Virus record (IMG/VR): IMGVR_UViG_3300048838_001248
Coordinates: 1 to 64,000 of that record
From: a virus
Lineage: Duplodnaviria > Heunggongvirae > Uroviricota > Caudoviricetes
Direction: 5' to 3' (one strand)
Length of the DNA: 64,000 nt
Part shown: positions 29,575-53,866 of the stretch, piece by piece
Position numbering within the stretch: the stretch's first letter is position 1
Layout: each line of letters begins with the position of its first letter
Translations under genes and position numbers: made by a program
The notes under the pieces: generated by a model
Told to the model about the DNA's origin: nothing
Seen by the model: the letters and a program-made list of their open reading frames with translations, nothing else
The model's database searches: none

Positions 29575-29606
29575 AAAAAACCCGGACATTGCTATCTGGG
29601 TTTTTA
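29575..29606. terminator. bidirectional intrinsic terminator between convergent blocks
   Basis: A6-CCCGGACATTGCTATCTGGG-T5. Confidence 0.55.
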
Positions 29607-29625
29607 ATTAAAAGCTGTACATTGA

Positions 29626-29934
29626 TTACATGAACAAACTATAAATCAACCAGCCAACAAATAGTGTAAACCAAGGTGCGATTATGCTAACAATTGCTCC
29701 TGTGGTATTATCTTTATATTCTTTCTTGATAACCTGTCCGTCTCCAATACGAAAGAAACCAATGAATAAGAATAATCCCACTGCATGCCAGAAATTTATT
29801 TCAGGTAGACCGGGGAAGACTGGTATTACGAACCAGTACCAGAACTTGTACAATGCGTAACCCCATGAGAGGCTACCGTACATTAATAAAACAAAAGCTA
29901 ATGCTAAGAAGCCTAATAGTGCAAGTAATTCCAT
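29626..29934 (-). CDS. membrane protein
   Basis: Hydrophobic 102-aa ORF. Confidence 0.5.
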   Translation of the reverse strand: MELLALLGFLALAFVLLMYGSLSWGYALYKFWYWFVIPVFPGLPEINFWHAVGLFLFIGFFRIGDGQVIKKEYKDNTTGAIVSIIAPWFTLFVGWLIYSLFM

Positions 29935-29944
29935 AATTTAAATT

Positions 29945-30199
29945 TTAAAATAATTGAATATAATTTTTGTATTCCGGGTATTTGTTTTTAAGATAATCGA
30001 AAGCCAGTTTATCACCTGACTTTTTGGACAATGCGGTTATCTGGAATTCATCCAGCCATTTGATTCTATCACCACAGATAGTCATACCATTTTCATCGAA
30101 TTGCACCATGCCTTGTGGACAATATGTTTTGGTGTACAATCTCTGAATGAACATTGGTAAATTGAGTAGCCAGTGTTTTTGTTTGAGTTCAACTTTCAT
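29945..30199 (-). CDS. hypothetical protein
   Basis: 84-aa ORF. Confidence 0.45.
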   Translation of the reverse strand: MKVELKQKHWLLNLPMFIQRLYTKTYCPQGMVQFDENGMTICGDRIKWLDEFQITALSKKSGDKLAFDYLKNKYPEYKNYIQLF

Positions 30200-30612
30200 A
30201 TCTTCCAGTTTGGTGGGTATTTCTTATGTCTTTTAATATATTCCGCATCCAGTTCTTCGAGCATTCTGAAGCATCTGTTCTTCAGCAAGCTATAAGGATG
30301 GTGGATTTTATCGTAGTGGTCGAGCCAGAGTTTCTTTCCGAGTTCCGGTGTATGGATATATTGTTTGGTGTACAATCTCTCAAGACCTTCTTGCATATCG
30401 AATGCTGACTGTGATAGTCTACCAACGTAGTCCAGAATTCTGATAATTTCTTCATAGGTTTCAGTATGTGTTTTATCATCTATTCTTTTTTGGGTTTGAA
30501 TTATTTTTAATCTGTTTTTGAGTTTTTCAATAATCTCTTCTGCCTTACTTAGTTCGTTTTTATGGTCTGGGGTTATGAGATTATTATCGATTAGGATTTG
30601 TTCACTTAACAT
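30196..30612 (-). CDS. hypothetical protein
   Basis: 138-aa ORF. Confidence 0.5.
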   Translation of the reverse strand: MLSEQILIDNNLITPDHKNELSKAEEIIEKLKNRLKIIQTQKRIDDKTHTETYEEIIRILDYVGRLSQSAFDMQEGLERLYTKQYIHTPELGKKLWLDHYDKIHHPYSLLKNRCFRMLEELDAEYIKRHKKYPPNWKI

Positions 30613-30634
30613 GTGTTAAAAAGTTACATAGCTG

Positions 30635-31015
30635 TTATTTTTTTCTGATGGTTACGCCATCAACGTTACCCTTGACATTACCACAGTTAATTGTAGTACC
30701 GTCAACATCACCTCCTACATCTCCATTGATATTAATGCTTGTGCCATCAACGTCTCCACGTACATTGCCGTTAATGGTAGCACTTGTACAATCAAGATTT
30801 GCGAGGTCGCCTTCGAATGTGATGCGTACATTGCCATTAAGATTTTCTTTAATAACATCACCATCAACAATTACCTTACCGTTTCTCACCACGATATTTC
30901 TACCACGGACTTCGAAGGTCTCATTGTCAATACTGATTTTATTTAAAGCCTTCTTCATAGATTTGAATGCATCATCTAAGGTTTTTTCCATGTCATCGAA
31001 GATACTCATAGGCAT
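30635..31015 (-). CDS. Gly/Asn/Val/Asp repeat protein (beta-helix, bactofilin-like?)
   Basis: Repeats GNVRGDVDGTSININGDVGGDVDGTTINCGNVKGNVDG. Confidence 0.45.
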   Translation of the reverse strand: MPMSIFDDMEKTLDDAFKSMKKALNKISIDNETFEVRGRNIVVRNGKVIVDGDVIKENLNGNVRITFEGDLANLDCTSATINGNVRGDVDGTSININGDVGGDVDGTTINCGNVKGNVDGVTIRKK

Positions 31016-31017
31016 TT

Positions 31018-31266
31018 TTAATTAAAGTTAATACTATTTTCTAATATATATTGTTTCACAATTTTATCTGGGGTTTCGGAATTCGGGATGCCCGTGAAAT
31101 TAGTTTCGATTCCAAAACCCTGACTCCAATCAAACACCAGACCTTCACCTTCTGGGGTCTCGGATACCATTTCTTTATCGAATAGCTGCAGGAATACTCC
31201 TAACATATGGTCGTCACCACCTACAAGAGTTAATCTGTCGTCCTGATATAATGTCTTTCTACTCAC
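31018..31266 (-). CDS. hypothetical protein
   Basis: 82-aa ORF. Confidence 0.45.
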   Translation of the reverse strand: MSRKTLYQDDRLTLVGGDDHMLGVFLQLFDKEMVSETPEGEGLVFDWSQGFGIETNFTGIPNSETPDKIVKQYILENSINFN

Positions 31267-31291
31267 GGGGTTATAGTTTTTAATTAAAGTC

Positions 31292-31750
31292 TTACTTCAG
31301 GTCGTAGACATAAACATCTACAGATGCGCAGTCTTCGATAATTTGTTCGATGGTATTCCAGTCTCCACCTGCAAGACCTGCACCGATTCTCGGCATATGA
31401 AGACTTGCTCCAGTACGATAGGCGACATTATTTACTGCAGCAAGACAAGCACGCAGAGCACCGTATCTTATTGGTGGTTCTCCATTGGGAGATATTCCAA
31501 CACCACGCTGCGCAATCATGTTTGCCACTGAGATATTATCTTCTACCGGGACGAGCATTACTTTACCAAGCATCAATTCTTCTTTAGACATTTCTCTATA
31601 TGCTTCTTCAGGTTCGCTCCAACGTTTGGACAATGCTAATACGAAGCCAGCACCCCATGCACCGATATCGTTACATATGTGACAGATAATCTTGTTGCCG
31701 TCTCCCTGTGGGCGAGTAGCATCGCCTTTTAGATATTTGATTTTTTTCAT
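31292..31750 (-). CDS. macro-domain (ADP-ribose binding/processing) protein
   Basis: KGDATRP..IICHICNDIGAWGAGFV and HMPRIGAGLAGGDW resemble macro-domain glycine-rich loops. Confidence 0.5.
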   Translation of the reverse strand: MKKIKYLKGDATRPQGDGNKIICHICNDIGAWGAGFVLALSKRWSEPEEAYREMSKEELMLGKVMLVPVEDNISVANMIAQRGVGISPNGEPPIRYGALRACLAAVNNVAYRTGASLHMPRIGAGLAGGDWNTIEQIIEDCASVDVYVYDLK

Positions 31751-33112: not shown

Positions 33113-33511
33113 TTACTTTACTTCATATCCACATTGGGGACACCAACGTTTTCCTTCTTCAACATATGTTGGCATGTCTCTACCGTCACAATTACAGATA
33201 GGGTCTTGCTTATCATACTTAATTTCCAATTGCTTGTGAGGATGTTGGTCTTCAACATATTTCTCAATGGTTTGAATGTATTCGATTTGCTTCTCGAATT
33301 CCAAGGACTTAATGTATTCTTTGCTTCTATTTGAACCTATGAGTGATTTGGCTTTGAAGACATCTACAGAATTTGTGCTGATTGGTGCTTCGGGATGTAA
33401 GCAAGCAAGTGTGTATAATCTGGTGATGACAATTTGCTTTAGCTTTTCTGTCTCGTTTAAGAGGTCATCCATTTTCCTCTTATAGTCCTGTGCATTTGGG
33501 TTTTTTCTCAT
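33113..33511 (-). CDS. coiled-coil / C-terminal zinc-ribbon protein
   Basis: C-terminal CNCDG...CPQCG; the -10 element sits 4 nt from the ATG, so the transcript may be leaderless. Confidence 0.5.
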   Translation of the reverse strand: MRKNPNAQDYKRKMDDLLNETEKLKQIVITRLYTLACLHPEAPISTNSVDVFKAKSLIGSNRSKEYIKSLEFEKQIEYIQTIEKYVEDQHPHKQLEIKYDKQDPICNCDGRDMPTYVEEGKRWCPQCGYEVK

Positions 33512-33515: not shown

Positions 33516-33546
33516 ATTATACGTAAATCATTTCAAAATGTTACAG
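33516..33546 (-). promoter_or_regulatory. phage ECF-type promoter (minus)
   Basis: Plus strand reads ATTATACG-N16-GTTACAG; 4 nt from start codon. Confidence 0.5.
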
Positions 33547-33608: not shown

Positions 33609-34784
33609 TTATTCGATATCCACCAGTCTTGTCTCAATCATTTTCAGGAGTTCGGACATTGGTCTGCTTTCAGCTTCCGCTTTCATTGCAGTTTCAATTG
33701 GCAGTTGATTTGCCTTAACTTTGGCAATCAGTTCTTCAAGTTCTGCTTCCTCGTATTCCTGATAATCGCTTTCGAAGTACGCTTGTTCAATGATGTCAAT
33801 TTTACCATTGGTATAGGTTGCAACTGCGAAGGGGAAGTATTCACTCACACGCATTTTGCTGTGGTCATAATCCGGCACTGCAACAACATTGGCAGGGTTG
33901 ACGTAGCACACCAGTACTGCATTTCCACTGGAAGCAAACCTTTCAACATAAGTTGTTGCTCCAACATGCAGACCGTATGAACAATCCCTTGCAGGGTCGC
34001 TGTCACATGCATGGCGAGGCATCACTACTGGCTGACCGAGTACAATACTCATGGTCTTAGTGTGCTTGTCAGTGTAAATGGTTTCGGGTTCGTTTTTGTC
34101 ATCATTAAAGATTGACATAAACATGTCTCCGAGTTTGCCAAGGATTTCAACACCCTTTTCTTTTTCATCCCAACTTTCGGCTGTTTCGATTTTGGTAATG
34201 AAATAGTTTGTGGTATCTTCTTCCCTGTACACCACGTACTTGTTAGGACTGCATTTCCAGTCTTTCTTAACGTGAAGGTACTGGTTGCTCACGAATGCCG
34301 GAAGGTCGTTATCGGCTTTCTTTTTGTAATCAACAGCCTTGTACACAACCATATAACCGTTGTCAGTCAGAACAAAGTCATGGGTTGTAATGAAGTCAAA
34401 CAGACTTTCACGTACCCTGACATCCGGGTTAATCATCAGGAGTTTCCAGAAGTTGATAATGGCTTCCAGAGGATAGTTGTTCTCATGATATTCTTTCACG
34501 ACTTCAACCAGTGTTGCGGGAACGGGAGTATTGAAACCTGCAAGGTAAACCAATCCAGTTTCAGGGTCGGCTTCCAGACCTGCTTCCATTGCAATACGTG
34601 TGCGCTCATTGAGAAGCAAACGGACTGCTTTAAAATTATCCTCATTGGGATTTTCTTTTGCTTTCAGAACGGCACGAAACAGTTCATCAGCTTCTTTGGG
34701 TGAACCGCAGTTTTTCTTGTGAAGTTTACCTTCAATCGAAATGTTGACTACGTTACCTGTTTTGATTGCATTAATGTTTTTCAT
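33609..34784 (-). CDS. rIIB: rIIB-like protein
   Basis: CSYGLHVGATTYVERFASSGNAVLVCYVNPANVVAVP parallels T4 rIIB C..GLHV...F.SS..V..V.P..VV.P; directly downstream of rIIA. Confidence 0.7.
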   Translation of the reverse strand: MKNINAIKTGNVVNISIEGKLHKKNCGSPKEADELFRAVLKAKENPNEDNFKAVRLLLNERTRIAMEAGLEADPETGLVYLAGFNTPVPATLVEVVKEYHENNYPLEAIINFWKLLMINPDVRVRESLFDFITTHDFVLTDNGYMVVYKAVDYKKKADNDLPAFVSNQYLHVKKDWKCSPNKYVVYREEDTTNYFITKIETAESWDEKEKGVEILGKLGDMFMSIFNDDKNEPETIYTDKHTKTMSIVLGQPVVMPRHACDSDPARDCSYGLHVGATTYVERFASSGNAVLVCYVNPANVVAVPDYDHSKMRVSEYFPFAVATYTNGKIDIIEQAYFESDYQEYEEAELEELIAKVKANQLPIETAMKAEAESRPMSELLKMIETRLVDIE

Positions 34785-34823: not shown

Positions 34824-34854
34824 ATTATACGTAAATTATTTCAAATGGTTACAA
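34824..34854 (-). promoter_or_regulatory. phage promoter for rIIB
   Basis: 26-nt promoter-plus-leader block identical to the rIIA one. Confidence 0.6.
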
Positions 34855-37219: not shown

Positions 37220-37250
37220 ATTATACGGAATATATTTGAAATGGTTACAA
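37220..37250 (-). promoter_or_regulatory. phage promoter for rIIA
   Basis: ATTGTGTTTCTCTATGCAATTATACG block shared with rIIB. Confidence 0.6.
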
Positions 37251-37335: not shown

Positions 37336-37366
37336 GTTATACGTTTGAGTTGAAGTAAGGTTACAA
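37336..37366 (-). promoter_or_regulatory. phage-type promoter with no gene (about 70-nt transcript?)
   Basis: GTTATACG-N16-GTTACAA. Confidence 0.4.
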
Positions 37367-37375
37367 TCAGGGTCT

Positions 37376-37480: not shown

Positions 37481-37486
37481 ATATTT

Positions 37487-37517
37487 ATTATACGGATTCA
37501 GATTAAAATGGTTACAA
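37487..37517 (-). promoter_or_regulatory. phage promoter of sRNA copy 1
   Basis: ATTATACG-N16-GTTACAA. Confidence 0.55.
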
Positions 37518-38396: not shown

Positions 38397-38427
38397 CTTA
38401 TACGTAAACCCGGTTAAAATGTTACAA
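38397..38427 (-). promoter_or_regulatory. phage promoter (minus)
   Basis: CTTATACG-N16-GTTACAA. Confidence 0.55.
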
Positions 38428-38719: not shown

Positions 38720-38750
38720 CTTATACGTAAGTCATTCTGAAATGTTACAA
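38720..38750 (-). promoter_or_regulatory. phage promoter of ncRNA candidate
   Basis: CTTATACG-N16-GTTACAA. Confidence 0.5.
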
Positions 38751-39844: not shown

Positions 39845-39875
39845 ATTATACGTAAGCTGATTGAATTTGTTACAA
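39845..39875 (-). promoter_or_regulatory. phage promoter (minus)
   Basis: ATTATACG-N16-GTTACAA. Confidence 0.55.
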
Positions 39876-40112: not shown

Positions 40113-40149
40113 ATTATACGAAAAAACCCCGGAAATGTTACATCCGGGG
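40113..40149 (-). promoter_or_regulatory. fused terminator-promoter cassette
   Basis: Hairpin CCCCGGAAATGTTACATCCGGGG carries the -35; the A6 spacer is the terminator T-tract on minus; -10 ATTATACG. Confidence 0.6.
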
Positions 40150-40816: not shown

Positions 40817-40858
40817 ATTATACGGAAAAATGCGGTGAATGTTACAAACAAACACCGC
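40817..40858 (-). promoter_or_regulatory. fused terminator-promoter cassette
   Basis: Hairpin GCGGTG-AATGTTACAAACAAA-CACCGC contains the -35. Confidence 0.55.
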
Positions 40859-41636: not shown

Positions 41637-41670
41637 ATTATACGAAAAAAACCCTGTAAATGTTACAGGG
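41637..41670 (-). promoter_or_regulatory. fused terminator-promoter cassette
   Basis: Hairpin CCCTGTAAATGTTACAGGG contains the -35; A7 spacer. Confidence 0.55.
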
Positions 41671-42541: not shown

Positions 42542-42572
42542 ATTATACGGAAATAAATAGTTTTTGTTACAA
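42542..42572 (-). promoter_or_regulatory. phage promoter (minus)
   Basis: ATTATACG-N16-GTTACAA. Confidence 0.55.
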
Positions 42573-42776: not shown

Positions 42777-42807
42777 ATTATACGGATTTTAATTAAAATG
42801 GTTACAG
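42777..42807 (-). promoter_or_regulatory. phage promoter (minus)
   Basis: Spacer contains TTTTAATTAAAA. Confidence 0.55.
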
Positions 42808-42946: not shown

Positions 42947-42947
42947 T

Positions 42948-42978
42948 ATTATACGGATTTTAATTAAAATGGTTACAA
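42948..42978 (-). promoter_or_regulatory. phage promoter of sRNA copy 2
   Basis: Spacer contains TTTTAATTAAAA. Confidence 0.55.
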
Positions 42979-43507: not shown

Positions 43508-43538
43508 ATTATACGGATTTTAATTAAAAAGGTTACAA
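43508..43538 (-). promoter_or_regulatory. phage promoter (minus)
   Basis: ATTATACG-N16-GTTACAA. Confidence 0.55.
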
Positions 43539-43896: not shown

Positions 43897-43934
43897 ATTA
43901 TACGAAAAAACCCCTGAATTGTTACACTCAGGGG
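43897..43934 (-). promoter_or_regulatory. fused terminator-promoter cassette
   Basis: Hairpin CCCCTGAATTGTTACACTCAGGGG contains the -35. Confidence 0.55.
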
Positions 43935-45110: not shown

Positions 45111-45141
45111 CTTATACGGAATTTAATTAAAAAGGTTACAA
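45111..45141 (-). promoter_or_regulatory. phage promoter (minus)
   Basis: CTTATACG-N16-GTTACAA. Confidence 0.55.
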
Positions 45142-45493: not shown

Positions 45494-45525
45494 ATTATAC
45501 GAAAACTTTTTGAATTTTGTTACAG
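45494..45525 (-). promoter_or_regulatory. phage promoter (minus) of non-coding unit
   Basis: ATTATACG-N17-GTTACAG. Confidence 0.45.
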
Positions 45526-45746: not shown

Positions 45747-45777
45747 CTTATACGGAATTTAATTAAAAAAGTTACAA
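45747..45777 (-). promoter_or_regulatory. phage promoter (minus)
   Basis: CTTATACG-N16-GTTACAA. Confidence 0.55.
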
Positions 45778-46328: not shown

Positions 46329-46359
46329 CTTATACGTATTTTAATTAAAATGGTTACAT
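46329..46359 (-). promoter_or_regulatory. phage promoter (minus)
   Basis: CTTATACG-N16-GTTACAT. Confidence 0.55.
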
Positions 46360-46800: not shown

Positions 46801-46839
46801 GTTATACGTAATGAACCCGGAAATGTTACAATCCGGGTT
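46801..46839 (-). promoter_or_regulatory. fused terminator-promoter cassette
   Basis: Hairpin AACCCGGAAATGTTACAATCCGGGTT contains the -35. Confidence 0.55.
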
Positions 46840-46846
46840 CAATTTT

Positions 46847-47643: not shown

Positions 47644-47674
47644 ATTATACGTAAATCAGGACATTATGTTACAA
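47644..47674 (-). promoter_or_regulatory. phage promoter (minus)
   Basis: ATTATACG-N16-GTTACAA; terminator hairpin just upstream at 47679-47700. Confidence 0.55.
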
Positions 47675-47719: not shown

Positions 47720-48610
47720 TTATGCATTGGCAAGCAAGTACTCAAATACTTTGCTGTCGGTTTCCATTCGGGTTTCCGGTGCAGCTATGGTTCTGTCGCT
47801 GAACATATATTGGTTTATTCCGTTATATATCAGCCAGTCATTTACCTTACCGTTGTAACCAAGTGATGCGTTCTGTGCTTCGGTCATTATCCGGTTGGTT
47901 ATGTCATTCAGGGTGTTGAACTTTGAAGTGTCAACCATTGCTATCTTTGTAGCTTTCAGTACCTCAGTAAGCCTGTCCTGAACATTCTCAACCCATCTGC
48001 CACCAAGCATTTCGTACTTTGCAGTCAGAGCGTTGGTTATCTCTTTTGCGTTCTCGCCAAAGTTCTGCAACATTGTGTCAAGTTCGTCAAAGCTATGCAG
48101 AATTTGTTCTGTGTGCTTACCAACAATTGCAAGATTGAATTCCTTCATTTCTTCAACTGCGATAACAAGACCATTGGAGCAAACCAAACGGAAGTAACCA
48201 AACACAATCCGGTATTTGGTAAGACCGTTGTAACTGTGCTGAACTCTGAGCATTGGCTGAATAACGTCATTACTACCTTTCATTTTGTAGCCATAACGCT
48301 TGTCATCAATAGCATAGTCAGCATAAAACCTGACGTTGTTGATATGCTTGTACTCAGGGGTGAAATTAATCCTGTGTGCATTCAACACGTTTTCAATCTG
48401 CGGGAAAATGTTAGCATTCGGTACAAGTGCGTACCTGTCAGAGCAGTAGTTCAAATCCATTTCCTGACCACCAATGACACCTGTTACAACCTTGCAATAC
48501 TCAGGGTTGGTGTTTCTTGGGTTGTCAATCAATTCGACCGGGAAAAGCAAGTCATTCAGACTGCAAATCTTGGTTTCGGCTTTTTGTTTTTTTTCAGTTG
48601 CTGTTTCCAT
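47720..48610 (-). CDS. DUF932-like phage/plasmid protein
   Basis: HSYNGLTKYRIVFGYFRLVCSNGLV resembles the DUF932 signature. Confidence 0.45.
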   Translation of the reverse strand: METATEKKQKAETKICSLNDLLFPVELIDNPRNTNPEYCKVVTGVIGGQEMDLNYCSDRYALVPNANIFPQIENVLNAHRINFTPEYKHINNVRFYADYAIDDKRYGYKMKGSNDVIQPMLRVQHSYNGLTKYRIVFGYFRLVCSNGLVIAVEEMKEFNLAIVGKHTEQILHSFDELDTMLQNFGENAKEITNALTAKYEMLGGRWVENVQDRLTEVLKATKIAMVDTSKFNTLNDITNRIMTEAQNASLGYNGKVNDWLIYNGINQYMFSDRTIAAPETRMETDSKVFEYLLANA

Positions 48611-48635: not shown

Positions 48636-48666
48636 ATTATACGGACTTTAATTAAAAAGGTTACAC
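48636..48666 (-). promoter_or_regulatory. phage promoter (minus)
   Basis: ATTATACG-N16-GTTACAC. Confidence 0.55.
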
Positions 48667-48708
48667 GAATATACAATTATTTTTAATTAAAAGCGAAAAT
48701 TGTTTCTT

Positions 48709-48796
48709 TATTTAGACTAAATCTAAACTCAGGATATAAGGTAGGTTGGAGTCTACCCTCTGCGCACCTTCGGAGTGCGAACCTCCTTTCTTTACT
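48709..48796 (-). ncRNA. candidate small RNA, family copy 3
   Basis: TATTTAGACTAAATCTAAACTCAGGATATAAGGTAGGTTGGAGTC core plus UUCG-type hairpin; own promoter 48798-48828. Confidence 0.4.
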
Positions 48797-48797
48797 T

Positions 48798-48828
48798 ATT
48801 ATACGGTTTTTAATTAAAAAGGTTACAA
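48798..48828 (-). promoter_or_regulatory. phage promoter of sRNA copy 3
   Basis: ATTATACG-N16-GTTACAA. Confidence 0.55.
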
Positions 48829-48927: not shown

Positions 48928-49275
48928 TTATTCACCATCGGTTTCAACTGTTTCTCCGGTTTCCTTGCAGAATGAAGACAAAAGAAATTCTTCACACTCA
49001 AAATCACCGTCTTCAACCTTCTGCCAGAATTCCTGTGCATTCTCCAGACTTCCGTTTGAACCTGCTTTAATGTCATTCCGGCTTGGCACGGTATTGCCGT
49101 AGTAATCTCTTTTCCTGTCTTCCGGCAACACACATACACCTATTCTCAGACAATCTGCAGCGAATCTTCCAACACTGCCTTCCATTAGCCAACACTGACC
49201 ATTGTTTATCATTTCCTGTGTCTGTGTCACTCCGTATGACTTCTGCATTTCGATTATATTCTCAAGTGTTATCAT
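48928..49275 (-). CDS. hypothetical protein
   Basis: 115-aa ORF. Confidence 0.5.
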   Translation of the reverse strand: MITLENIIEMQKSYGVTQTQEMINNGQCWLMEGSVGRFAADCLRIGVCVLPEDRKRDYYGNTVPSRNDIKAGSNGSLENAQEFWQKVEDGDFECEEFLLSSFCKETGETVETDGE

Positions 49276-49299: not shown

Positions 49300-49330
49300 A
49301 TTATACGGATATCAGGGTAAAATGTTACAT
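49300..49330 (-). promoter_or_regulatory. phage promoter (minus)
   Basis: ATTATACG-N16-GTTACAT. Confidence 0.55.
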
Positions 49331-49949: not shown

Positions 49950-49980
49950 CTTATACGGTTTTTAATTAAAAAGGTTACAT
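49950..49980 (-). promoter_or_regulatory. phage promoter (minus)
   Basis: CTTATACG-N16-GTTACAT. Confidence 0.55.
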
Positions 49981-50363: not shown

Positions 50364-50403
50364 ATTATACGAAAACTGCCCCAGATTGTTACAGTCTGGA
50401 GCA
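50364..50403 (-). promoter_or_regulatory. phage promoter with overlapping hairpin
   Basis: ATTATACG-N16-GTTACAG; imperfect hairpin CTGCCCCAGAT..GTCTGGAGCAG around the -35. Confidence 0.5.
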
Positions 50404-50428
50404 GTTCTTTTTAATTAAAAACGCAAAA

Positions 50429-50764
50429 TTAAACGTGACCGCCTGACTTAATTTTGTCAATGACTTCCTGCAGACTTATGGACATTGGCTTAAAGTGCAT
50501 ATCTCTCTCAATGCCTAATCCAAACCTGCCCCTGAATGCCTGTAACTCGGACATTGAAACCGTGCCACATTCTGCACAATCTCTGTCGCCAAGGTTCACA
50601 AATGCCCAATAAATATCCTCGTCTTCCTTCTCGTACAAATACCATGTACCTGCACCTGCCGGATTAAAGAGTTTCATTACAATCTTAATATCTTTAGGGT
50701 CTTTGTCACCTGTGTAACCCTGTTTAGCAAAAGCTGCTTCGATTTCTTTGGTTATGAGTTTCAT
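50429..50764 (-). CDS. hypothetical protein
   Basis: Start at MKLITKE after promoter 50789-50819. Confidence 0.45.
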   Translation of the reverse strand: MKLITKEIEAAFAKQGYTGDKDPKDIKIVMKLFNPAGAGTWYLYEKEDEDIYWAFVNLGDRDCAECGTVSMSELQAFRGRFGLGIERDMHFKPMSISLQEVIDKIKSGGHV

Positions 50765-50788: not shown

Positions 50789-50819
50789 ATTATACGTTTT
50801 AAATAAAAAAAGGTTACAG
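50789..50819 (-). promoter_or_regulatory. phage promoter (minus)
   Basis: ATTATACG-N16-GTTACAG. Confidence 0.55.
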
Positions 50820-50855
50820 AAACCTGCAACCCTTTTAATTAAAAACGCAATGTTA

Positions 50856-51230
50856 TTATTCGACAACTTTGAAACTCCAAAACATATCTTCTCCCATGCC
50901 CTGACGGATTGTTGCATACCTGTTCTGACCGCCTGTAAAGTCTTTGTAATTCTTTGCAGTCCGGTACAATAATTTACCCATGCAAGACTGGTTCAGACAA
51001 TACTCCATGCCTCTGACATCGGACAATGAGAAATACCATGCCTGACCATTGATAGTACAGAAACCCGATACGTAAAAGTGTCCACGATTGAACACTATAT
51101 CAGTTGCACCCTGAGACTTCAGTTCCTTTGTAAACTCAGATTTGAAAGTTCTGTAAAACTGTGCAAACTCAGGTGTTAATCCTGATGAACTTTCGAAACC
51201 TGCCTGTAACATTTGAATTGCTTTTTTCAT
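50856..51230 (-). CDS. hypothetical protein
   Basis: 124-aa ORF. Confidence 0.5.
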   Translation of the reverse strand: MKKAIQMLQAGFESSSGLTPEFAQFYRTFKSEFTKELKSQGATDIVFNRGHFYVSGFCTINGQAWYFSLSDVRGMEYCLNQSCMGKLLYRTAKNYKDFTGGQNRYATIRQGMGEDMFWSFKVVE

Positions 51231-51256: not shown

Positions 51257-51287
51257 ATTATACGTAGGTTTTAAATAAAAGTTACAT
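51257..51287 (-). promoter_or_regulatory. phage promoter (minus)
   Basis: ATTATACG-N16-GTTACAT. Confidence 0.55.
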
Positions 51288-51746
51288 ATTATTAACTGAT
51301 TTTAGATAGTCCTCATAATATTTACAATTGTCGTAAACAATTATACTGTCCTGTGAATAATTACTAACAGGTGGTTGACTGTACAATACAAACTTACTGG
51401 CATCAATTGACTTACCAATATGGTATTTTATGTACATTGGATTGTGTTTAAGGCAATTTCTTATTGCTTGCTTGTTATCCCTGCCAATGAAATACATATT
51501 CTTAGGCTGAAAAGCATACCACGAATAAACATTAACACTTCTGCTCATGCCATACTTTTTACTCATTGGTACATTACCTGCAAGTACTTCCAGATAACCG
51601 TACAAATTGTTTCGCCTTACTCCCAGAATGACAAATACATTGCTGTTATGCCAATTGAATAACTTGCCAATCAATATCTTTTTGATTGTCTTGTTTACTG
51701 GTATGTGTCCATAATATCCGAACATTGCGTTTTGGTTTTGGTACAT
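51282..51746 (-). CDS. hypothetical protein
   Basis: Start probably the internal MFGYY ATG at 51725, since the first ATG is only 3 nt from the -10. Confidence 0.5.
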   Translation of the reverse strand: MYQNQNAMFGYYGHIPVNKTIKKILIGKLFNWHNSNVFVILGVRRNNLYGYLEVLAGNVPMSKKYGMSRSVNVYSWYAFQPKNMYFIGRDNKQAIRNCLKHNPMYIKYHIGKSIDASKFVLYSQPPVSNYSQDSIIVYDNCKYYEDYLKSVNNM

Positions 51747-51749: not shown

Positions 51750-51780
51750 ATTATACGGTTTTTATTTAAAAATGTTACAT
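51750..51780 (-). promoter_or_regulatory. phage promoter (minus)
   Basis: ATTATACG-N16-GTTACAT. Confidence 0.55.
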
Positions 51781-51838: not shown

Positions 51839-52099
51839 TTACTTTATTCCTGCCAGCTTTTTGAGTTCTGCCTTAATCCGTTTGGCTGTTTCGCCCTTCC
51901 ATGTTCCGGCATTGGCAAGGAAGTACAATACAATTGACTTGCCGGAGTCCATTCCGTAATTGTCATTGATTGAGTTCAGGCACTCCATTGCATCAAGATA
52001 AGGTTTTGCACCAAAATAGATACCGTTCTTACTTGTTGCTTTCCAGTCCTTGCGAATTTCACTTGCAATCTGGTACAAAGGTCTTGTCGTTGTTGTCAT
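51839..52099 (-). CDS. hypothetical protein
   Basis: 86-aa ORF. Confidence 0.45.
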   Translation of the reverse strand: MTTTTRPLYQIASEIRKDWKATSKNGIYFGAKPYLDAMECLNSINDNYGMDSGKSIVLYFLANAGTWKGETAKRIKAELKKLAGIK

Positions 52100-52123: not shown

Positions 52124-52154
52124 ATTATACGTTGGTTTTAATTAAAAGTTACAT
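52124..52154 (-). promoter_or_regulatory. phage promoter (minus)
   Basis: ATTATACG-N16-GTTACAT. Confidence 0.55.
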
Positions 52155-52367
52155 TCTGGACAAACTATTTTCCATATCTGCAATTAATTTTTTCTGTATC
52201 TTAATTGCCCTGTACAATCCAAACGAAAAACCTATTGCCTTGCGCATACCCTGAAGTTTTTCAAGTGCATTTTTAGCATTCTGTAACTCACTTGTCGTTG
52301 TGCTTGCACAATAACAGACTGTTGATAAAATTACGTTTGCGTTCATTGCTTTGTCGTTTTGGTACAT
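52149..52367 (-). CDS. hypothetical protein
   Basis: Start probably the internal MNANVIL ATG at about 52346. Confidence 0.45.
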   Translation of the reverse strand: MYQNDKAMNANVILSTVCYCASTTTSELQNAKNALEKLQGMRKAIGFSFGLYRAIKIQKKLIADMENSLSRM

Positions 52368-52370
52368 TAT

Positions 52371-52401
52371 ATTATACGGAATTTAAAGTAATTTGTTACG
52401 T
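52371..52401 (-). promoter_or_regulatory. phage promoter (minus), -35 variant
   Basis: ATTATACG-N16-GTTACGT. Confidence 0.45.
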
Positions 52402-52469
52402 TCTGAACATTGTATCTGAACATTGTAACAATAAAACGGAGTACATTTCTGCACTCCGTTTCTATTGCC

Positions 52470-53024
52470 TTATGCGTTCACTAACTGTGCCTGTAACATT
52501 GTTCTGCACCTGTTTATCATTCCTTTGACAGTTCCAAGCGGTACATTGCAAATCTCTGCAATTTCGCTATATTCTTTTTCATGCATAAAATACAGGTTTG
52601 CAATACGTCTGTATTTAGGTTTCAGACTTGCAAATGCTTTCAAAATTGCTTCCCTTAGTTCTCTGTTGTTTGAAACATCATTGCCGTCAGTACCAACAAA
52701 TTCAAACATTTCTTTTCCGGTTTCATCAACAAAATCAGAAACATGAACATCTGTTGCATGGTATTTGTTTGCCCTGAAAAAATCAATAACTGCATTGTTA
52801 GCAATAAAATGTAACCATGTAGTCATTTTTGATACACTTTCATTATACTTGTCAAAGTGTTTGTATGCGTTAACAAATACCTTTGCTGTTATATCCTCTG
52901 CATCATTGATATTGTTAACTTTCGTATTTACATAGTGCAAAATTTGATTGTAAAACTTTGCGTAAACCTGATTAAAATTCATTGTTTCAGTCGTTTTCAT
53001 ATCTTTGCGTTTTAAGTTAAACAT
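52470..53024 (-). CDS. ECF-type sigma-70 family RNA polymerase sigma factor
   Basis: Region 2 DAEDITAKVFVNAYKHFDKY..TWLHFIANNAVIDFFR; region 4 YRRIANLYFMHEKEYSEIAEICNVPLGTVKGMINRCR. Track start is GTG at 53033; ATG at 53024 is more likely. Confidence 0.75.
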   Translation of the reverse strand: MFNLKRKDMKTTETMNFNQVYAKFYNQILHYVNTKVNNINDAEDITAKVFVNAYKHFDKYNESVSKMTTWLHFIANNAVIDFFRANKYHATDVHVSDFVDETGKEMFEFVGTDGNDVSNNRELREAILKAFASLKPKYRRIANLYFMHEKEYSEIAEICNVPLGTVKGMINRCRTMLQAQLVNA

Positions 53025-53037
53025 ATAATTCACGTAT

Positions 53038-53063
53038 CAAATGTACTATATTTAACGTTACAA
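53038..53063 (-). promoter_or_regulatory. promoter region of sigma factor gene (host-type -7 box overlapping a degenerate phage-type motif)
   Basis: Minus strand TTTGTTTGTAACG..TACATTTG-ATAC-GTG: TAcaTTTG -7 box plus upstream TTTG; the phage-like -10 is degenerate (TACGTGAATTAT). Confidence 0.4.
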
Positions 53064-53236
53064 ACAAACAAAAGTTTCATTATTTTGTATCAAAGTTACA
53101 AAGTTACCCTAATTTATATTCATTCTAAATAAGCCAATACTATACCATATATATAGGAATTATTTTTATTCATAACTTGCTGATAATCAGAACAGAATAA
53201 AATAAATGCAATTTTAATTAAAAATAGTGTACCCAA

Positions 53237-53267
53237 AATGTAACCAAAACAATTTTTTACCGTATCA
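53237..53267 (+). promoter_or_regulatory. weak phage-type promoter
   Basis: ATGTAAC-N16-CGTATCAC upstream of gene 53297. Confidence 0.3.
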
Positions 53268-53296
53268 CTATATATAAACCAATAAATTTTAAAAAC

Positions 53297-53866
53297 ATGG
53301 AAAACGCAAAAAAATTCTTCGGTCAGTTTGAAAACCTCAAAGGTGCTTCATTCATTGCAATTAACAAGTATTTTGCCAAAACTACGGGTGAAGTTGCTAA
53401 CCACGTTGTTAACGTCAATATTAGTGTGCAGAATGCAAAAGAAACCGATTTTAACAGGTTGAAAAATTGCAATGATAATGACGTTCAGGCAATTAGTAAG
53501 GCTTCCGGTATTGATGCTGAAACCGTTAAACTTGCACTTTCTGAAATGCTTGTAAGTGCAGAAAAAAACCTATCTGCAAACATTGAGGACAGGACAAACC
53601 AAAGCAAAGGACAGACAGATGCATATATCAATTTGACCCCTGCAATACGTCTGCATAAGGAAACCCTTGAAATTCACGTATTTGGGCAGTCAATTTCAAA
53701 GGTTGTTTTGGTCAAAGGTGAATACAAAACCGTTAACAGTTCAGCCAAAACCCTTGCAAAACAGGCAATTACCAAACACCTTGATTTGAGAGCCGGAAAA
53801 TTCAGGGACTTCATTTGTGGCAGAATTGATACCGTAAAAGTGAACGGTGAAACCATTGAGTTGTAA
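53297..53866 (+). CDS. hypothetical protein
   Basis: 189-aa ORF followed by terminator. Confidence 0.5.
   Translation: MENAKKFFGQFENLKGASFIAINKYFAKTTGEVANHVVNVNISVQNAKETDFNRLKNCNDNDVQAISKASGIDAETVKLALSEMLVSAEKNLSANIEDRTNQSKGQTDAYINLTPAIRLHKETLEIHVFGQSISKVVLVKGEYKTVNSSAKTLAKQAITKHLDLRAGKFRDFICGRIDTVKVNGETIEL

What the first reader, a model, noticed from the sequence alone, without database searches (positions are those of the whole stretch)
29600..53300. Phage-encoded ECF sigma factor and a genome-wide family of about 44 cognate ECF-type promoters (TTGTAAC-N16-CGTATAAT)
The ORF at 52470..53024 has clear sigma-70 region 2 and region 4 and no region 1 or 3, so it is ECF-like. Almost every transcription unit in the window is preceded by the motif TTGTAAC-N16-CGTATAAT: 12 copies on the plus strand and 32 on the minus strand. 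The spacer is 16 nt in 42 copies and 17 nt in two. This matches the AAC / CGT architecture of ECF sigma promoters (Bacillus sigW TGAAAC-N16-CGTA; sigX TGTAAC-N17-CGAC) and does not match the Bacteroidota sigma-A consensus (TTTG / TAnnTTTG). The simplest reading is that the phage brings its own ECF sigma to redirect host RNA polymerase to more than 40 promoters. These include the rIIA/rIIB promoters, several small-RNA promoters and the tRNA-like RNA operon. A phage ECF sigma with such a dense regulon is not, to my knowledge, a described paradigm.
Basis: partly seen in the sequence, partly recalled or inferred. Interest (0 to 1): 0.85.

Follow-up and report, generated by a model that had tools for sequence, protein, structure and literature searches.

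The report
Phage ECF sigma and its promoters
A large uncultured phage, probably of Bacteroidota, carries its own SigW-like ECF sigma factor and about 45 matching promoters in 64 kb; this is a real, conserved and apparently undescribed example of a familiar trick, a phage sigma that redirects the host RNA polymerase.

Summary
TTGTAAC-N16-CGTATAAT occurs 18 times exactly and 44 times with up to 2 mismatches (12 plus, 32 minus; spacer 16 in 42, 17 in 2), against 0.25 expected. Sites are co-oriented with the genes and usually lie 16-46 nt before an ATG. The ORF at 52470..53024 lies on the minus strand and probably starts at 53000 (176 aa). It is a two-domain ECF sigma, and its closest solved relative is B. 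subtilis SigW. The promoter reproduces the SigW type: AAC, a -35-proximal T-tract, N16, CGTA. In ten loci chosen only because they encode a homologue of this sigma (38-65% identical), a dense co-oriented array of TGTAAC-N16/17-CGTAT sites begins just downstream of the sigma gene. Across lineages CGTA stays fixed while the "TAAT" tail drifts, which argues against a sigma-70 reading. The sigma gene lacks the consensus motif. It has a Bacteroidota sigma-A-type promoter (TTTG-N19-TACATTTG) overlapping a conserved variant, TGAAAC-N16-CGTTAAAT. The novelty claim is overstated, because phage sigma cascades are classical (SPO1 gp28, T4 gp55, phiEco32 gp36). This is a new member of that kind.

The parts
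52470..53000 (-). Phage ECF sigma factor gene. It is 176 aa from the ATG at 53000.
   Evidence: Sigma70_r2 and r4_2, TIGR02937 84.8 bits against a 42.9 cutoff. P0001 is 100% identical and 176 aa; best PDB match is SigW 5wuq, 7e-32. The leader AACTTAAAAC before the ATG at 53000 is conserved as non-coding in relatives.
53038..53068 (-). Bacteroidota sigma-A-type promoter of the sigma gene: TTTG-N19-TACATTTG.
   Evidence: The closest relative, L129, has TTTG-N19-TAGTTTTG at the same place.
53050..53079 (-). Variant ECF-type promoter upstream of the sigma gene, TGAAAC-N16-CGTTAAAT. Candidate autoregulatory promoter.
   Evidence: Read. The same [TC]GAAAC-N16/17-CGT[AT]AAA-type box precedes the sigma gene in L129, L130, L131, L133, L134, L119 and L016, with related AGTA variants in L117 and L118. 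It scores below 8 bits with the consensus PWM.
53238..53268 (+). Weaker ECF-type promoter, ATGTAAC-N16-CGTATCAC. It precedes the conserved divergent 189-aa gene 53297-53866.
   Evidence: 17.7 bits. The gene is conserved next to sigma.
1346..1376 (+). ECF-type promoter, 0 mismatches. ATG about 19 nt downstream.
7516..7546 (+). ECF-type promoter, 0 mismatches. Precedes ORF 7565-7990.
8081..8111 (+). ECF-type promoter, 0 mismatches. Precedes ORF 8128-8613.
11409..11439 (+). ECF-type promoter, 1 mismatch. Precedes ORF 11468-11770.
15368..15398 (+). ECF-type promoter, 0 mismatches. Precedes ORF 15430-15999.
16046..16076 (+). ECF-type promoter, 0 mismatches. Precedes ORF 16082-16693.
18670..18700 (+). 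ECF-type promoter, 0 mismatches. ATG 7 nt downstream.
18972..19002 (+). Doubtful copy: 2 mismatches, inside ORF 18925-19425.
23453..23483 (+). ECF-type promoter, 1 mismatch. Precedes ORF 23499-23885.
24727..24757 (+). ECF-type promoter, 1 mismatch. Precedes ORF 24773-25297 and the long plus-strand operon that runs to about 29.5 kb.
58984..59014 (+). ECF-type promoter, 0 mismatches. Precedes ORF 59037-59930.
61771..61801 (+). ECF-type promoter, 0 mismatches. Precedes a non-coding stretch with tRNA-like genes at 62115-62210 and 62793-62866.
33516..33546 (-). ECF-type promoter, 1 mismatch. Precedes ORF 33113-33511 and the minus-strand operon that runs to about 29.6 kb.
34824..34854 (-). ECF-type promoter, 0 mismatches. 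Precedes the rIIB-like gene 33609-34784.
37220..37250 (-). ECF-type promoter, 0 mismatches. Precedes the rIIA-like gene 34880-37174.
37336..37366 (-). ECF-type promoter, 1 mismatch. No clear ORF follows.
37487..37517 (-). ECF-type promoter, 0 mismatches. Precedes small-RNA copy 3 (about 37374-37486).
38397..38427 (-). ECF-type promoter, 1 mismatch. Precedes ORF 37633-38373.
38720..38750 (-). ECF-type promoter, 1 mismatch. Followed by a long leader or ncRNA before ORF 38414-38578.
39845..39875 (-). ECF-type promoter, 0 mismatches. Precedes ORF 39192-39818.
40113..40143 (-). ECF-type promoter, 1 mismatch, with a terminator hairpin wrapped round the -35 box. Precedes ORF 39870-40076.
40817..40847 (-). 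ECF-type promoter, 0 mismatches. Precedes ORF 40349-40789.
41637..41668 (-). ECF-type promoter, N17, 1 mismatch, with an overlapping terminator hairpin. Precedes ORF 41419-41610.
42542..42572 (-). ECF-type promoter, 0 mismatches. Precedes ORF 41683-42513 (GP88 / phrog_1617).
42777..42807 (-). ECF-type promoter, 1 mismatch. Precedes ORF 42567-42752.
42948..42978 (-). ECF-type promoter, 0 mismatches. Precedes small-RNA copy 1 (about 42865-42947).
43508..43538 (-). ECF-type promoter, 0 mismatches. Precedes ORF 43232-43483.
43897..43927 (-). ECF-type promoter, 1 mismatch, with an overlapping terminator hairpin. Precedes ORF 43533-43880.
45111..45141 (-). ECF-type promoter, 1 mismatch. ATG 26 nt downstream, so the true start of the 43943-45085 gene is probably there. 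A terminator lies at 45176-45159 just upstream.
45494..45525 (-). ECF-type promoter, N17, 1 mismatch. No ORF within about 190 nt.
45747..45777 (-). ECF-type promoter, 1 mismatch. Precedes ORF 45541-45720.
46329..46359 (-). ECF-type promoter, 2 mismatches. Precedes ORF 45994-46305.
46801..46831 (-). ECF-type promoter, 1 mismatch, with an overlapping hairpin. Precedes ORF 46426-46773.
47644..47674 (-). ECF-type promoter, 0 mismatches. Precedes ORF 47071-47619.
48636..48666 (-). ECF-type promoter, 1 mismatch. Precedes ORF 47720-48610 (DUF932).
48798..48828 (-). ECF-type promoter, 0 mismatches. Precedes small-RNA copy 2 (about 48706-48797).
49300..49330 (-). ECF-type promoter, 1 mismatch. Precedes ORF 48928-49275.
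49950..49980 (-). ECF-type promoter, 2 mismatches. Followed by a short ORF with its ATG about 26 nt downstream.
50364..50394 (-). ECF-type promoter, 1 mismatch, with an overlapping terminator hairpin. ATG 24 nt downstream.
50789..50819 (-). ECF-type promoter, 1 mismatch, with an overlapping hairpin. Precedes ORF 50429-50764 (DUF2958).
51257..51287 (-). ECF-type promoter, 1 mismatch. Precedes ORF 50856-51230.
51750..51780 (-). ECF-type promoter, 1 mismatch. Precedes ORF 51282-51746.
52124..52154 (-). ECF-type promoter, 1 mismatch. Precedes the conserved 86-aa gene 51839-52099.
52371..52401 (-). ECF-type promoter, 2 mismatches. It is the first promoter after the sigma gene and precedes ORF 52149-52367.
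5056..5086 (+). Sigma-A-like promoter, TTTG-N19-TACATTTG, 28 nt before ORF 5114-5281. Second promoter class.
6930..6960 (+). Sigma-A-like promoter, TTTG-N19-TATATTTG, 19 nt before ORF 6979-7179.
10042..10072 (+). Sigma-A-like promoter, TTTG-N19-TATATTTG, 39 nt before ORF 10111-11049.
51839..52099 (-). Conserved 86-aa four-helix protein. It lies directly after the sigma gene in most relatives. Possible partner of the sigma; function unknown.
   Evidence: 55-70% identity in 8 loci; phrog_13953; 3437 homologues; pLDDT 92, no PDB fold match.
53297..53866 (+). Conserved 189-aa gene, divergent from the sigma gene. Function unknown.
   Evidence: no family hit; 41-70% identity in L125, L133, L129, L014, L120 and L119, always beside sigma.

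Best explanation
The window is the non-structural part of a large lytic phage whose host is probably a member of Bacteroidota. The contig is at least 102 kb, and relatives are 95-366 kb.

Proposed cascade:
1. Host RNA polymerase with the housekeeping sigma-A starts a few units from TTTG-N19-TAnnTTTG promoters. One of these is the gene for a phage ECF sigma (52470-53000, minus strand).
2. This SigW-like two-domain sigma binds host core polymerase.
3. The new holoenzyme initiates at about 45 promoters of the form TGTAAC(nTTTT)-N16-CGTATAA(T). Region 4 reads the AAC box and region 2 reads CGTA. The start site should lie about 7-10 nt after CGTA, inside the conserved TATAACCAA leader.
4. These promoters drive nearly every small gene downstream of the sigma gene, rIIA and rIIB, longer operons on the plus strand, a family of small RNAs and a tRNA-like operon.
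5. A conserved variant promoter in front of the sigma gene, TGAAAC-N16-CGTTAAAT, probably gives positive autoregulation, as is typical of ECF sigmas.

Shown here: the motif family and its placement, the ECF identity of the protein, conservation of the sigma/promoter pair across lineages, and the existence of two promoter classes.

Inferred: that this sigma recognises these promoters, the start sites, the temporal order and the autoregulation.
For: Motif statistics and placement: 18 exact copies and 44 copies with up to 2 mismatches, against 0-0.25 expected. Sites are co-oriented with genes, with a median of 29 nt to the next ATG.

Protein identity: it passes the ECF model and covers SigW end to end. 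SigW is the best PDB hit by a wide margin, 113.8 bits against 79 for the next.

Promoter type: the consensus ttTGTAACatTTT...CGTATAAT reproduces the published sigma-W-type tGAAACnTTTt/CGTA, with the 16-nt spacer and the T-tract (PMC5758882).

Co-occurrence: all four IMG/VR contigs and all six assembly contigs found solely by sigma homology (38-65% identity) carry co-oriented arrays that begin just after the sigma gene. Site counts are 12, 23, 19 and 15, then 2 (that locus ends 700 nt after sigma), 21, 14, 22, 11 and 18. Conversely, motif-selected loci L014 and L016 turned out to encode a sigma homologue.

What is conserved: across 14 lineages TGTAAC, the T-tract and CGTA are constant. The tail varies by lineage (TAAT, TAAG, TCA., TTAT, TACT) and some lineages prefer N17. 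This is the pattern expected for ECF-type recognition, not sigma-70-type.

Family distribution: region 4 of the sigma family is its most conserved part. The family is essentially absent from cellular genomes. A scan of genome contigs covering 185,579 species found only two small contigs (1.4 and 2.8 kb), both in Bacteroidota MAGs.

Second promoter class: the sigma gene lacks the consensus motif but has a perfect sigma-A-type promoter. Four of the five full TTTG-N17-21-TAnnTTTG matches in the window are intergenic, 14-39 nt before a co-oriented ORF.

Host: only 4 of 119 genes have a Shine-Dalgarno-like 4-mer, and leaders are A-rich and G-poor, as in Bacteroidota.

Precedent: phage sigmas that drive middle or late genes are established (PMC12276001; PMC9429907).
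Against: - There are no transcription data. Start sites, timing and dependence on the phage protein are untested.
- Many of the driven genes look early (rIIA/B, small ORFs). A purely phage-sigma-dependent class can only be delayed-early.
- In several relatives (L117, L118, L119, L130, L131) I found no convincing sigma-A-type promoter before the sigma gene, only the ECF-like variant. How sigma is first made there is open.
- No anti-sigma or host-sigma inhibitor was recognised.
- The site subset with A after TGTAAC (15 of the 32 minus-strand sites in the 33.4-53.3 kb stretch scanned) can also be read as GTAACA-N17/18-TATAAT, a 10/12 match to the sigma-70 consensus.
- The host assignment rests on indirect evidence.
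- Co-occurrence was tested only in loci that contain sigma. I could not examine complete genomes of motif-bearing phages for absence of sigma.
Confidence: 0.77

Rival explanations
1. The motif is a strong host housekeeping promoter, read as GTAACA-N17-TATAAT and used by the host primary sigma like T4 or T5 early promoters. The phage sigma serves some other class, for example late genes outside the window.
For: The generic sigma-70 scan scores the site subset that has A after TGTAAC (15 in the 33.4-53.3 kb stretch scanned) at 10 of 12 with a 17- or 18-nt spacer and a perfect TATAAT. The genes driven look like early genes.
Against: The conserved bases are TGTAAC and CG. The TTG of a sigma-70 -35 box and the TG of an extended -10 are not conserved. 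Across lineages the TATAAT hexamer decays (CGTATCA., CGTATTAT, CGTATAAG) while CGTA stays. The host is probably Bacteroidota, whose sigma-A uses TTTG/TAnnTTTG and lacks classical -10/-35 recognition (PMC7366714). In the motif, TTTG and TA are 22 nt apart and the TTTG of the -7 box is missing. Genuine sigma-A-like promoters occur separately in the same window.
Confidence: 0.07
2. The promoters are ECF-type but are read mainly by a host ECF sigma, for example an envelope-stress sigma switched on by infection. The phage sigma only reinforces this or has another target set.
For: Bacteroidota encode dozens of ECF sigmas (PMC7366714). The architecture is the generic AAC/CGT type. In several relatives the sigma gene itself has only an ECF-like promoter, GAAAC-N16-CGTAAAA, which needs some ECF sigma to fire first.
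Against: The promoter family travels with the phage sigma in every lineage examined, at 38-65% protein identity and in different environments. No close cellular homologue of the sigma was found. The simplest cognate of a SigW-like promoter is the SigW-like sigma encoded next to it.
Confidence: 0.1
3. The repeat is not primarily a promoter. It might be the binding site of a phage regulator, a recombination or cassette-boundary element, or a terminator module that happens to lie between genes.
For: Sixteen sites have an AT-palindromic spacer (TTTTAATTAAAA). Six have a GC hairpin plus T-run around the -35 box. Intergenic repeats at the boundaries of small gene cassettes are known in other large phages (own knowledge).
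Against: The element is bipartite with a rigid 16-17-nt spacing. It is strictly co-oriented and sits 16-46 nt before start codons. It also precedes non-coding RNAs and tRNA-like genes. The variable part is the spacer, not the boxes, so hairpins and palindromes are add-ons.
Confidence: 0.03
4. The promoters are used by a phage-encoded RNA polymerase rather than by host core enzyme.
For: Relatives are jumbo phages (200-366 kb), and some jumbo phages encode their own polymerases (PMC7824862).
Against: No polymerase-sized or polymerase-like ORF is in the window; the largest ORFs are rIIA (764 aa), a 451-aa unknown and rIIB. According to PMC7824862, jumbo phages with their own multisubunit polymerases carry no sigma factor, while sigma-encoding jumbo phages lack a polymerase. 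The -35/-10 geometry is that of a sigma-dependent bacterial enzyme.
Confidence: 0.03

Closest known systems
Bacillus subtilis SigW (ECF sigma) and its regulon promoters, tGAAACnTTTt-N16-CGTA
   Same: Two-domain sigma2-sigma4 architecture with full-length alignment. SigW is the best solved-structure match (5wuq, 7e-32) and the best NCBIfam model. The promoter shares the AAC -35 box, the -35-proximal T-tract, the 16-nt spacer and the CGTA -10 box (PMC5758882). Some sites in relatives are literally TGAAAC.
   Different: It is not a SigW orthologue: 89.7 bits against the 209 equivalog cutoff. It is phage-encoded with no recognisable RsiW-type anti-sigma next to it. The -35 box is TGTAAC rather than TGAAAC, and the -10 box is extended to CGTATAA. 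The regulon is phage genes rather than envelope-stress genes, and the host phylum is different.
phiEco32 gp36 (with its cofactor gp79)
   Same: A phage-encoded two-domain sigma-like protein that joins host core polymerase and transcribes the middle and late genes from phage-specific promoters, while early genes use the host primary sigma (PMC12276001).
   Different: gp36 is described as only a distant sigma homologue. Its promoters have a single AATGTA element near -11.5, and it needs gp79, which also displaces sigma-70. Here the sigma is a clear ECF member, the promoter is canonical and bipartite, and no gp79-like factor was recognised. The conserved 86-aa neighbour has no detectable relation to any known protein.
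SPO1 gp28 and gp33/34, and T4 gp55 (classical phage sigma cascades)
   Same: A phage-encoded sigma replaces the host sigma to switch transcription to a new promoter class (PMC9429907; own knowledge).
   Different: They are unrelated or highly divergent sigma proteins with promoters that lack the AAC/CGT signature. T4 gp55 needs gp33 and the sliding clamp and recognises only a -10-like TATAAATA (own knowledge).
Sigma factors annotated 'sigma-W' in crAss-like and huge uncultured phages
   Same: They are ECF-like sigmas in phages of Bacteroidota and in very large metagenomic phages, and they are the best phage-database hits.
   Different: Identity is only 25-32%. To my knowledge their promoters have not been described, and I did not analyse them.
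Bacteroidota sigma-A promoters (TTTG at -33, TAnnTTTG at -7)
   Same: They are present in the window as a separate minor class, including in front of the sigma gene (PMC7366714).
   Different: The 44-copy motif lacks the TTTG of the -7 box. Its TTTG-to-TA spacing is 22 nt, outside the N17-21 range I used for sigma-A-type promoters, every co-oriented intergenic example of which in the window has N19.

Membership tests
ECF (group 4) sigma-70 family | Sigma region 2 and region 4 are both present. | tested here: met
   Pfam Sigma70_r2 1.2e-12 and Sigma70_r4_2 5.6e-10, both above the gathering scores.
ECF (group 4) sigma-70 family | Regions 1.1 and 3 are absent, and the protein is small (about 170-200 aa). 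| tested here: met
   The protein is 176-184 aa. The profile aligns positions 6-176 to SigW residues 16-186 of 187. There are no r1 or r3 hits.
ECF (group 4) sigma-70 family | It passes a curated ECF family model. | tested here: met
   TIGR02937 sigma70-ECF, 84.8 bits against a 42.9 cutoff. The narrow Pfam Sigma70_ECF model (PF07638) is not passed: 14.5 against 21.1.
ECF (group 4) sigma-70 family | Cognate promoters have an AAC-containing -35 box and a CGT-containing -10 box, 16-17 nt apart. | tested here: met
   The sequence pattern is met at 44-45 sites and in 14 lineages. Recognition by this protein was not tested.
ECF (group 4) sigma-70 family | Autoregulation: an ECF-type promoter in front of the sigma's own gene. 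| tested here: inconclusive
   A conserved variant, [TC]GAAAC-N16/17-CGT[AT]AAA, precedes the sigma gene in the window and in most relatives. It scores below 8 bits with the consensus PWM, and its activity is unknown.
ECF (group 4) sigma-70 family | A co-encoded anti-sigma factor. This is common but not universal. | tested here: not met
   The neighbours (72 aa, 86 aa, 154 aa and the divergent 189 aa) have no Pfam or PHROG anti-sigma hit. The 86-aa model has no PDB fold match. Many ECF groups lack anti-sigmas (PMC8999054 title, not read in detail).
SigW orthologues (NCBIfam NF007223 / TIGR02948) | Score above the equivalog cutoff. | tested here: not met
   89.7 against 209 bits, and 84.3 against 243 bits. 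It is SigW-like, not SigW.
Phage sigma takeover cascade (SPO1 gp28 / phiEco32 gp36 type) | The sigma is encoded by a phage. | tested here: met
   The window carries rIIA/rIIB, an RNA ligase with an HNH domain and PHROG families. Homologous IMG/VR viral contigs exist. The sigma family is virtually absent from cellular genomes.
Phage sigma takeover cascade (SPO1 gp28 / phiEco32 gp36 type) | The sigma gene itself is expressed from a host-type promoter. | tested here: inconclusive
   A perfect TTTG-N19-TACATTTG is present in the window and in L129. TAnnTTTG boxes occur in L014, L120 and L020. No clear one is found in L117-L119, L130 or L131.
Phage sigma takeover cascade (SPO1 gp28 / phiEco32 gp36 type) | A distinct phage promoter class precedes the later genes and depends on the phage sigma. 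| not testable with these tools
   The distinct class exists. Dependence and timing need transcription experiments.
Phage sigma takeover cascade (SPO1 gp28 / phiEco32 gp36 type) | The sigma binds host core RNA polymerase. | not testable with these tools
   This is inferred only from ECF homology.

The most novel reading that the evidence does not exclude
In a widespread clade of large and jumbo Bacteroidota phages, the whole pre-late programme (host-takeover genes, rII, nucleotide and DNA metabolism, small RNAs, tRNAs) runs on a single orthogonal ECF sigma/promoter pair and largely bypasses host sigma-A. In many lineages the sigma gene has only a GAAAC-N16-CGTAAAA promoter. It would then be ignited by a host envelope-stress ECF sigma triggered by the infection itself, or by virion-delivered sigma, and amplified by positive feedback. 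The ultra-conserved 86-aa neighbour would act as a new polymerase-binding cofactor, in the way gp79 or AsiA do.
Probability: 0.12. Interest if true: 0.7.

Novelty: new member of a known kind. Interest (0 to 1): 0.45.

Why it matters
If confirmed, this would be a clean case of a bona fide ECF sigma used as a phage takeover factor. The promoter code is unusually sharp and information-rich, and it is conserved across at least 14 lineages of large uncultured phages linked to Bacteroidota.

It would allow transcription units, small RNAs and temporal classes to be annotated directly from sequence in a big, uncultured phage group.

It would also offer a compact sigma/promoter pair that should be orthogonal to the unusual Bacteroidota sigma-A, which is attractive for engineering Bacteroides or Flavobacteria.

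Phage ECF sigmas were explicitly left out of the current ECF classification (PMC7826278), so the family would fill a gap there. Conceptually it extends a classical paradigm rather than overturning it.

Tried and rejected
- Near-identity DNA search of 20 kb against 50,697 phage records: no match. No cultured relative is available.
- Extending the window. Edge proteins 327-1040 and 3717-4526 are not on record. P0001 and the right-edge protein gave only 35- and 33-kb contigs from another sample. The 102-kb contig and any late or structural genes could not be examined. The 9.6 kb beyond the right end holds one more site and nucleotide-metabolism genes.
- Broadening the co-occurrence test. The alignment of divergent sigma paralogues was too variable for the search for related loci. 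Single-protein scans returned essentially only the query contigs.
- Second sigma in the window: none. An HMM of the family against all six-frame ORFs found only the one gene.
- Anti-sigma or cofactor. Pfam and PHROGs on 20 neighbouring proteins gave nothing relevant. The 86-aa neighbour folds confidently (pLDDT 92) but has no PDB fold match (best E 1.6).
- Small RNAs: no Rfam family, even at E up to 1.
- Linker length against spacer preference (N16 or N17). Inspection of alignment A1 against one search showed no simple correlation, so I dropped it.
- Literature searches for this motif or for ECF sigmas of Bacteroidota or jumbo phages found no description.

Full report
**1. Observation**

The pattern TTGTAAC-N16/17-CGTATAAT occurs 18 times exactly in the 64-kb window, and no shuffle gave a single copy. 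With a fixed 16-nt spacer and up to two mismatches there are 42 copies against 0.25 expected. Two more copies have a 17-nt spacer.

Aligned on the -10 box, TGTAAC and CGTATAA each carry about 2 bits per base. The leading T and the final T are weaker. A T-tract follows the AAC, and a further box (TATAACCAA or TGTACCAA) lies 3-4 nt after the -10 element.

The sites follow gene orientation. They are on the plus strand at 1-25 kb and 59-62 kb, and on the minus strand at 33.5-52.4 kb. Most have an ATG 16-46 nt downstream. A few have no ORF behind them and are followed instead by small RNAs or tRNA-like genes.

One copy, 18972-19002, is intragenic and doubtful. A PWM scan adds one weaker site at 53238-53268(+).

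The ORF at 52470..53024 is open only on the minus strand. The database protein (P0001, 176 aa) and the conserved non-coding leader in relatives put its start at 53000.

**2. The protein**

It has sigma-70 regions 2 and 4 only. It passes the NCBIfam ECF superfamily model, and its best specific models are SigW, though far below the orthologue cutoffs. It belongs to PHROG 1740, annotated RNA polymerase sigma factor.

A profile of 38 homologues finds B. subtilis SigW (5wuq) as by far the best solved structure, at 7e-32 over the full length. The next hit is 3.6e-21.

Homologues at 38-65% identity are almost all from metagenomes, and identity then drops to below 30%. A scan of genome contigs covering 185,579 species found only two small contigs (1.4 and 2.8 kb), binned in a Lutibacter MAG and a Prolixibacteraceae MAG. 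The family therefore looks phage-specific.

In the reference phage collection the nearest proteins are only 25-32% identical. They are 'sigma-W' annotations in crAss-like phages and unannotated genes in 630-640-kb phages.

**3. The genomic setting**

No cultured phage resembles the window at the DNA level. Its recognisable genes are:
- rIIA-like
- rIIB-like
- an RNA ligase with an HNH domain, and a peptide deformylase-like protein
- DUF932, DUF2958 and GP88 families

The rest are small ORFs of unknown function. No structural genes and no RNA polymerase genes are present.

Only 4 of 119 genes have a Shine-Dalgarno-like 4-mer, and leaders are A-rich and G-poor. This fits a Bacteroidota host, as do the two MAG bins. 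Many IMG/VR contigs of 95-366 kb share 65-75% DNA similarity with parts of the window, so this is a clade of large and jumbo phages.

**4. Is the promoter the cognate of the sigma?**

Four independent lines point the same way.

(a) *Architecture.* Published ECF promoters of the sigma-W type are tGAAACnTTTt ... CGTA. CGTA is the sigma-W-selective -10 box, and the -35-proximal T-tract is a general ECF promoter element (PMC5758882). The phage consensus ttTGTAACatTTT-...-CGTATAAT with N16 reproduces all three features, and the sigma is SigW-like.

(b) *Co-occurrence.* I retrieved loci purely by sigma homology: four IMG/VR contigs (L117-L120) and six assembly contigs (L129-L134). In all ten, a co-oriented array of TGTAAC-N16/17-CGTAT sites begins just downstream of the sigma gene. 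With at most 1 mismatch the counts are 12, 23, 19 and 15, then 2 (that locus ends 700 nt after sigma), 21, 14, 22, 11 and 18. In the reverse direction, the motif-selected loci L014 and L016 turned out to encode sigma homologues.

(c) *What is conserved.* In 14 lineages TGTAAC, the T-tract and CGTA are constant. The bases after CGTA drift by lineage (TAAT, TAAG, TCA., TTAT, TACT), and some lineages prefer N17. The perfect TATAAT of this window is therefore a lineage feature, not the recognised core. This weighs against the sigma-70-like reading GTAACA-N17-TATAAT, which a generic scan scores at 10/12. Region 4 is the most conserved part of the sigma family, in line with the invariant -35 box.

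(d) *Two promoter classes.* The Bacteroidota sigma-A consensus is TTTG at -33 and TAnnTTTG at -7 (PMC7366714). The full pattern occurs five times in the window, which is no more than chance overall. However, four of the five are intergenic and 14-39 nt upstream of a co-oriented ORF that lacks the phage motif. They lie at 5056-5086, 6930-6960, 10042-10072 and 53038-53068. Intergenic DNA is 14% of the window, so by my own binomial estimate the chance of at least four of five falling there is about 0.002. The last of the four sits directly in front of the sigma gene. Further TAnnTTTG boxes lie before the motif-less units at 53-59 kb.

**5. The sigma gene's own promoter**

The consensus motif is absent upstream of the sigma gene. 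Overlapping the sigma-A-type promoter is TGAAAC-N16-CGTTAAAT (53079-53050, minus strand). Equivalent boxes precede the sigma gene in relatives:
- L129: TGAAAC-N16-CGTTAAAA
- L130: CGAAAC-N17-CGTAAAAG
- L131: CGAAAC-N16-CGTAAAAA
- L134: CGAAAC-N16-CGTAAAAG
- L133: TGAAAC-N16-CGTACAAT
- L119: CGTAAACT
- L016: TGCAAC-N16-CGTACACA

From base frequencies, my own estimate for a chance match to GNAAC-N16-NGTA within 60 nt is about 0.004 per locus. The element is therefore real.

It is best read as a weaker autoregulatory ECF promoter, which is a hallmark of the family. In relatives without a visible sigma-A-type promoter, it leaves open how the first sigma molecules are made. Possibilities are read-through, a host ECF sigma, or delivered protein.

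**6. Proposed mechanism**

1. Host sigma-A holoenzyme fires a handful of immediate-early units, including the sigma gene.
2. The phage ECF sigma then captures core polymerase.
3. It activates about 45 promoters in this window. In the 19 kb downstream of its gene there is one promoter every 590 bp on average.
4. Targets include rIIA, rIIB, longer operons, three copies of a small RNA and the tRNA-like operon.
5. The sigma boosts its own synthesis.

In relatives, genes behind the motif include DNA ligase, a PurZ-like synthetase, an RNA-binding protein and rII. These are early or middle functions, and no structural genes appeared among them. The class is therefore probably delayed-early or middle, and late control is unknown.

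What is shown: the motif family, its positions, the ECF identity, the cross-lineage pairing and the two promoter classes. Everything about recognition, start sites and timing is inference.

**7. Rivals**

- Host sigma-70-type promoter: disfavoured by the conservation pattern, the cross-lineage drift of TATAAT, and the probable Bacteroidota host.
- Host ECF sigma as the main reader: not excluded, and perhaps relevant for ignition. It is less simple than the phage sigma that always travels with the motif.
- A non-promoter repeat: disfavoured by the rigid bipartite geometry and the placement.
- A phage RNA polymerase: there is no such gene here. According to PMC7824862, sigma-encoding jumbo phages lack their own polymerase.

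**8. Comparison and novelty**

Phage sigmas that redirect host core polymerase are classical. SPO1 gp28/gp34 and T4 gp55 are essential for middle or late genes (PMC9429907). phiEco32 gp36 with gp79 transcribes middle and late genes from an AATGTA element (PMC12276001). Many jumbo phages encode sigma factors (PMC7824862). The paradigm is therefore described.

What appears undescribed is this particular family: a bona fide, SigW-like ECF sigma with a canonical AAC/CGTA promoter code, conserved across a clade of large Bacteroidota-associated phages at very high promoter density. My literature searches found nothing on it. The ECF reclassification paper states that phage ECFs were not captured (PMC7826278).

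I rate it a new member of a known kind. It is solid and useful, with moderate surprise.

**9. Side observations**

- Six promoters have the terminator of the preceding gene wrapped around their -35 box, with its T-run forming the spacer. The same occurs in relatives.
- Sixteen promoters have an AT-palindromic spacer.
- A small-RNA family with a conserved 3' half is driven by the promoter in this phage and in three relatives, with no Rfam match.
- An 86-aa protein directly after sigma in most lineages is more conserved than sigma itself. It has 3437 database homologues and a confident four-helix model with no known fold relative.
- A 189-aa gene always lies divergent to sigma.

The last two proteins are candidates for cofactors, but nothing supports that beyond synteny.

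Noticed in passing
window about 42865-42947(-), 48706-48797(-), 37374-37486(-); also L118 about 16800 and 19140, L120 about 6955, L119 about 18195: A family of roughly 80-110-nt non-coding RNAs, each starting right after an ECF-type promoter. The 5' half is variable. The 3' half is conserved: ...CCAACCTACCTTATATCCTGA-TTTAGAnnnnnTCTAAATAAG, ending in a hairpin. There is no Rfam match, even at E up to 1.
   Followed up: partly
window 40113-40155, 41637-41680, 43897-43937, 46801-46845, 50364-50410, 50789-50836 (all minus strand): Combined terminator-promoter modules. A 10-14-bp GC-containing hairpin encloses the -35 TGTAAC box, and its T-run forms the 3' part of the promoter spacer. One 45-nt element therefore ends one unit and starts the next. 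The same design is seen in L118, L119 and L120.
   Followed up: partly
window 51839-52099(-): An 86-aa protein (phrog_13953) lies directly after the sigma gene in most relatives. It is 55-70% identical where sigma is only 38-50%, and it has 3437 homologues in the large protein database, all unnamed. The AlphaFold model is a confident four-helix protein (pLDDT 92) with no significant PDB fold match. It may be a cofactor of the sigma or a polymerase-binding protein.
   Followed up: partly
window 53297-53866(+): A 189-aa protein of unknown function is always encoded divergently next to the sigma gene: 41-70% identity in six relatives, with a second, very divergent 175-aa form in others. It is preceded by a weak variant of the phage promoter, ATGTAAC-N16-CGTATCAC.
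   Followed up: partly
window: 3-4 nt after most -10 boxes, e.g. 43488-43500(-): A conserved box, TATAACCAA(T/A)A or TGTACCAA / TGTACAAACC, lies at the predicted transcript start. It has lineage-specific versions (L120 TATAACCACTTAA, L014 CTTAAACAAACAC). It is probably an initiating sequence or a G-free leader for Shine-Dalgarno-independent translation. rIIA, rIIB and three other units instead share the leader TGCA(T/C)AGA(G/A)AA.
   Followed up: no
window: 16 of the 44 promoter spacers, e.g. 42948-42978, 43508-43538, 48798-48828: A subclass of promoters has a nearly identical AT-palindromic spacer, CCTTTTTAATTAAAAT. It could be the binding site of a dimeric regulator or a DNA-bending element. 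It is also present in L118 and L119.
   Followed up: no
window 62115-62210(+) and 62793-62866(+): Two tRNA-like genes lie downstream of the promoter at 61771-61801. ARAGORN could not assign an amino acid to the second (two-base anticodon call, 'tc'). The first passes Rfam tRNA only weakly (33.6 bits).
   Followed up: no
window 57120-57165(-): A tandem duplication, AATAATTGTTACATTTG x2, gives two sigma-A-like -7 boxes (TACATTTG) 21 nt apart. It lies upstream of ORF 56774-57109, a MORN_2-repeat protein with a weak DUF6705 hit.
   Followed up: no
window 12401-13441(+): A 346-aa protein combines an N-terminal HNH-endonuclease-like segment with an RNA ligase (phrog_24030, 4.6e-133).
   Followed up: no
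L057 9638-10801(+) (IMGVR_UViG_3300001533_002237): In a motif-bearing IMG/VR contig (homology to the window not shown), a gene behind an ECF-type promoter matches the PurZ-type adenylosuccinate synthetase family (phrog_1211, 1e-58). This hints at a 2-aminoadenine (Z) genome in part of the clade.
   Followed up: no
L014 7613-8161 and 10981-11499; L080, L031, L020, L021: Some related contigs carry two sigma paralogues or a more distant paralogue (27-31% identity). In L080 and L031 that paralogue is itself preceded by a full consensus TGTAAC-N16-CGTATAA promoter, which suggests a sigma cascade in those phages.
   Followed up: partly
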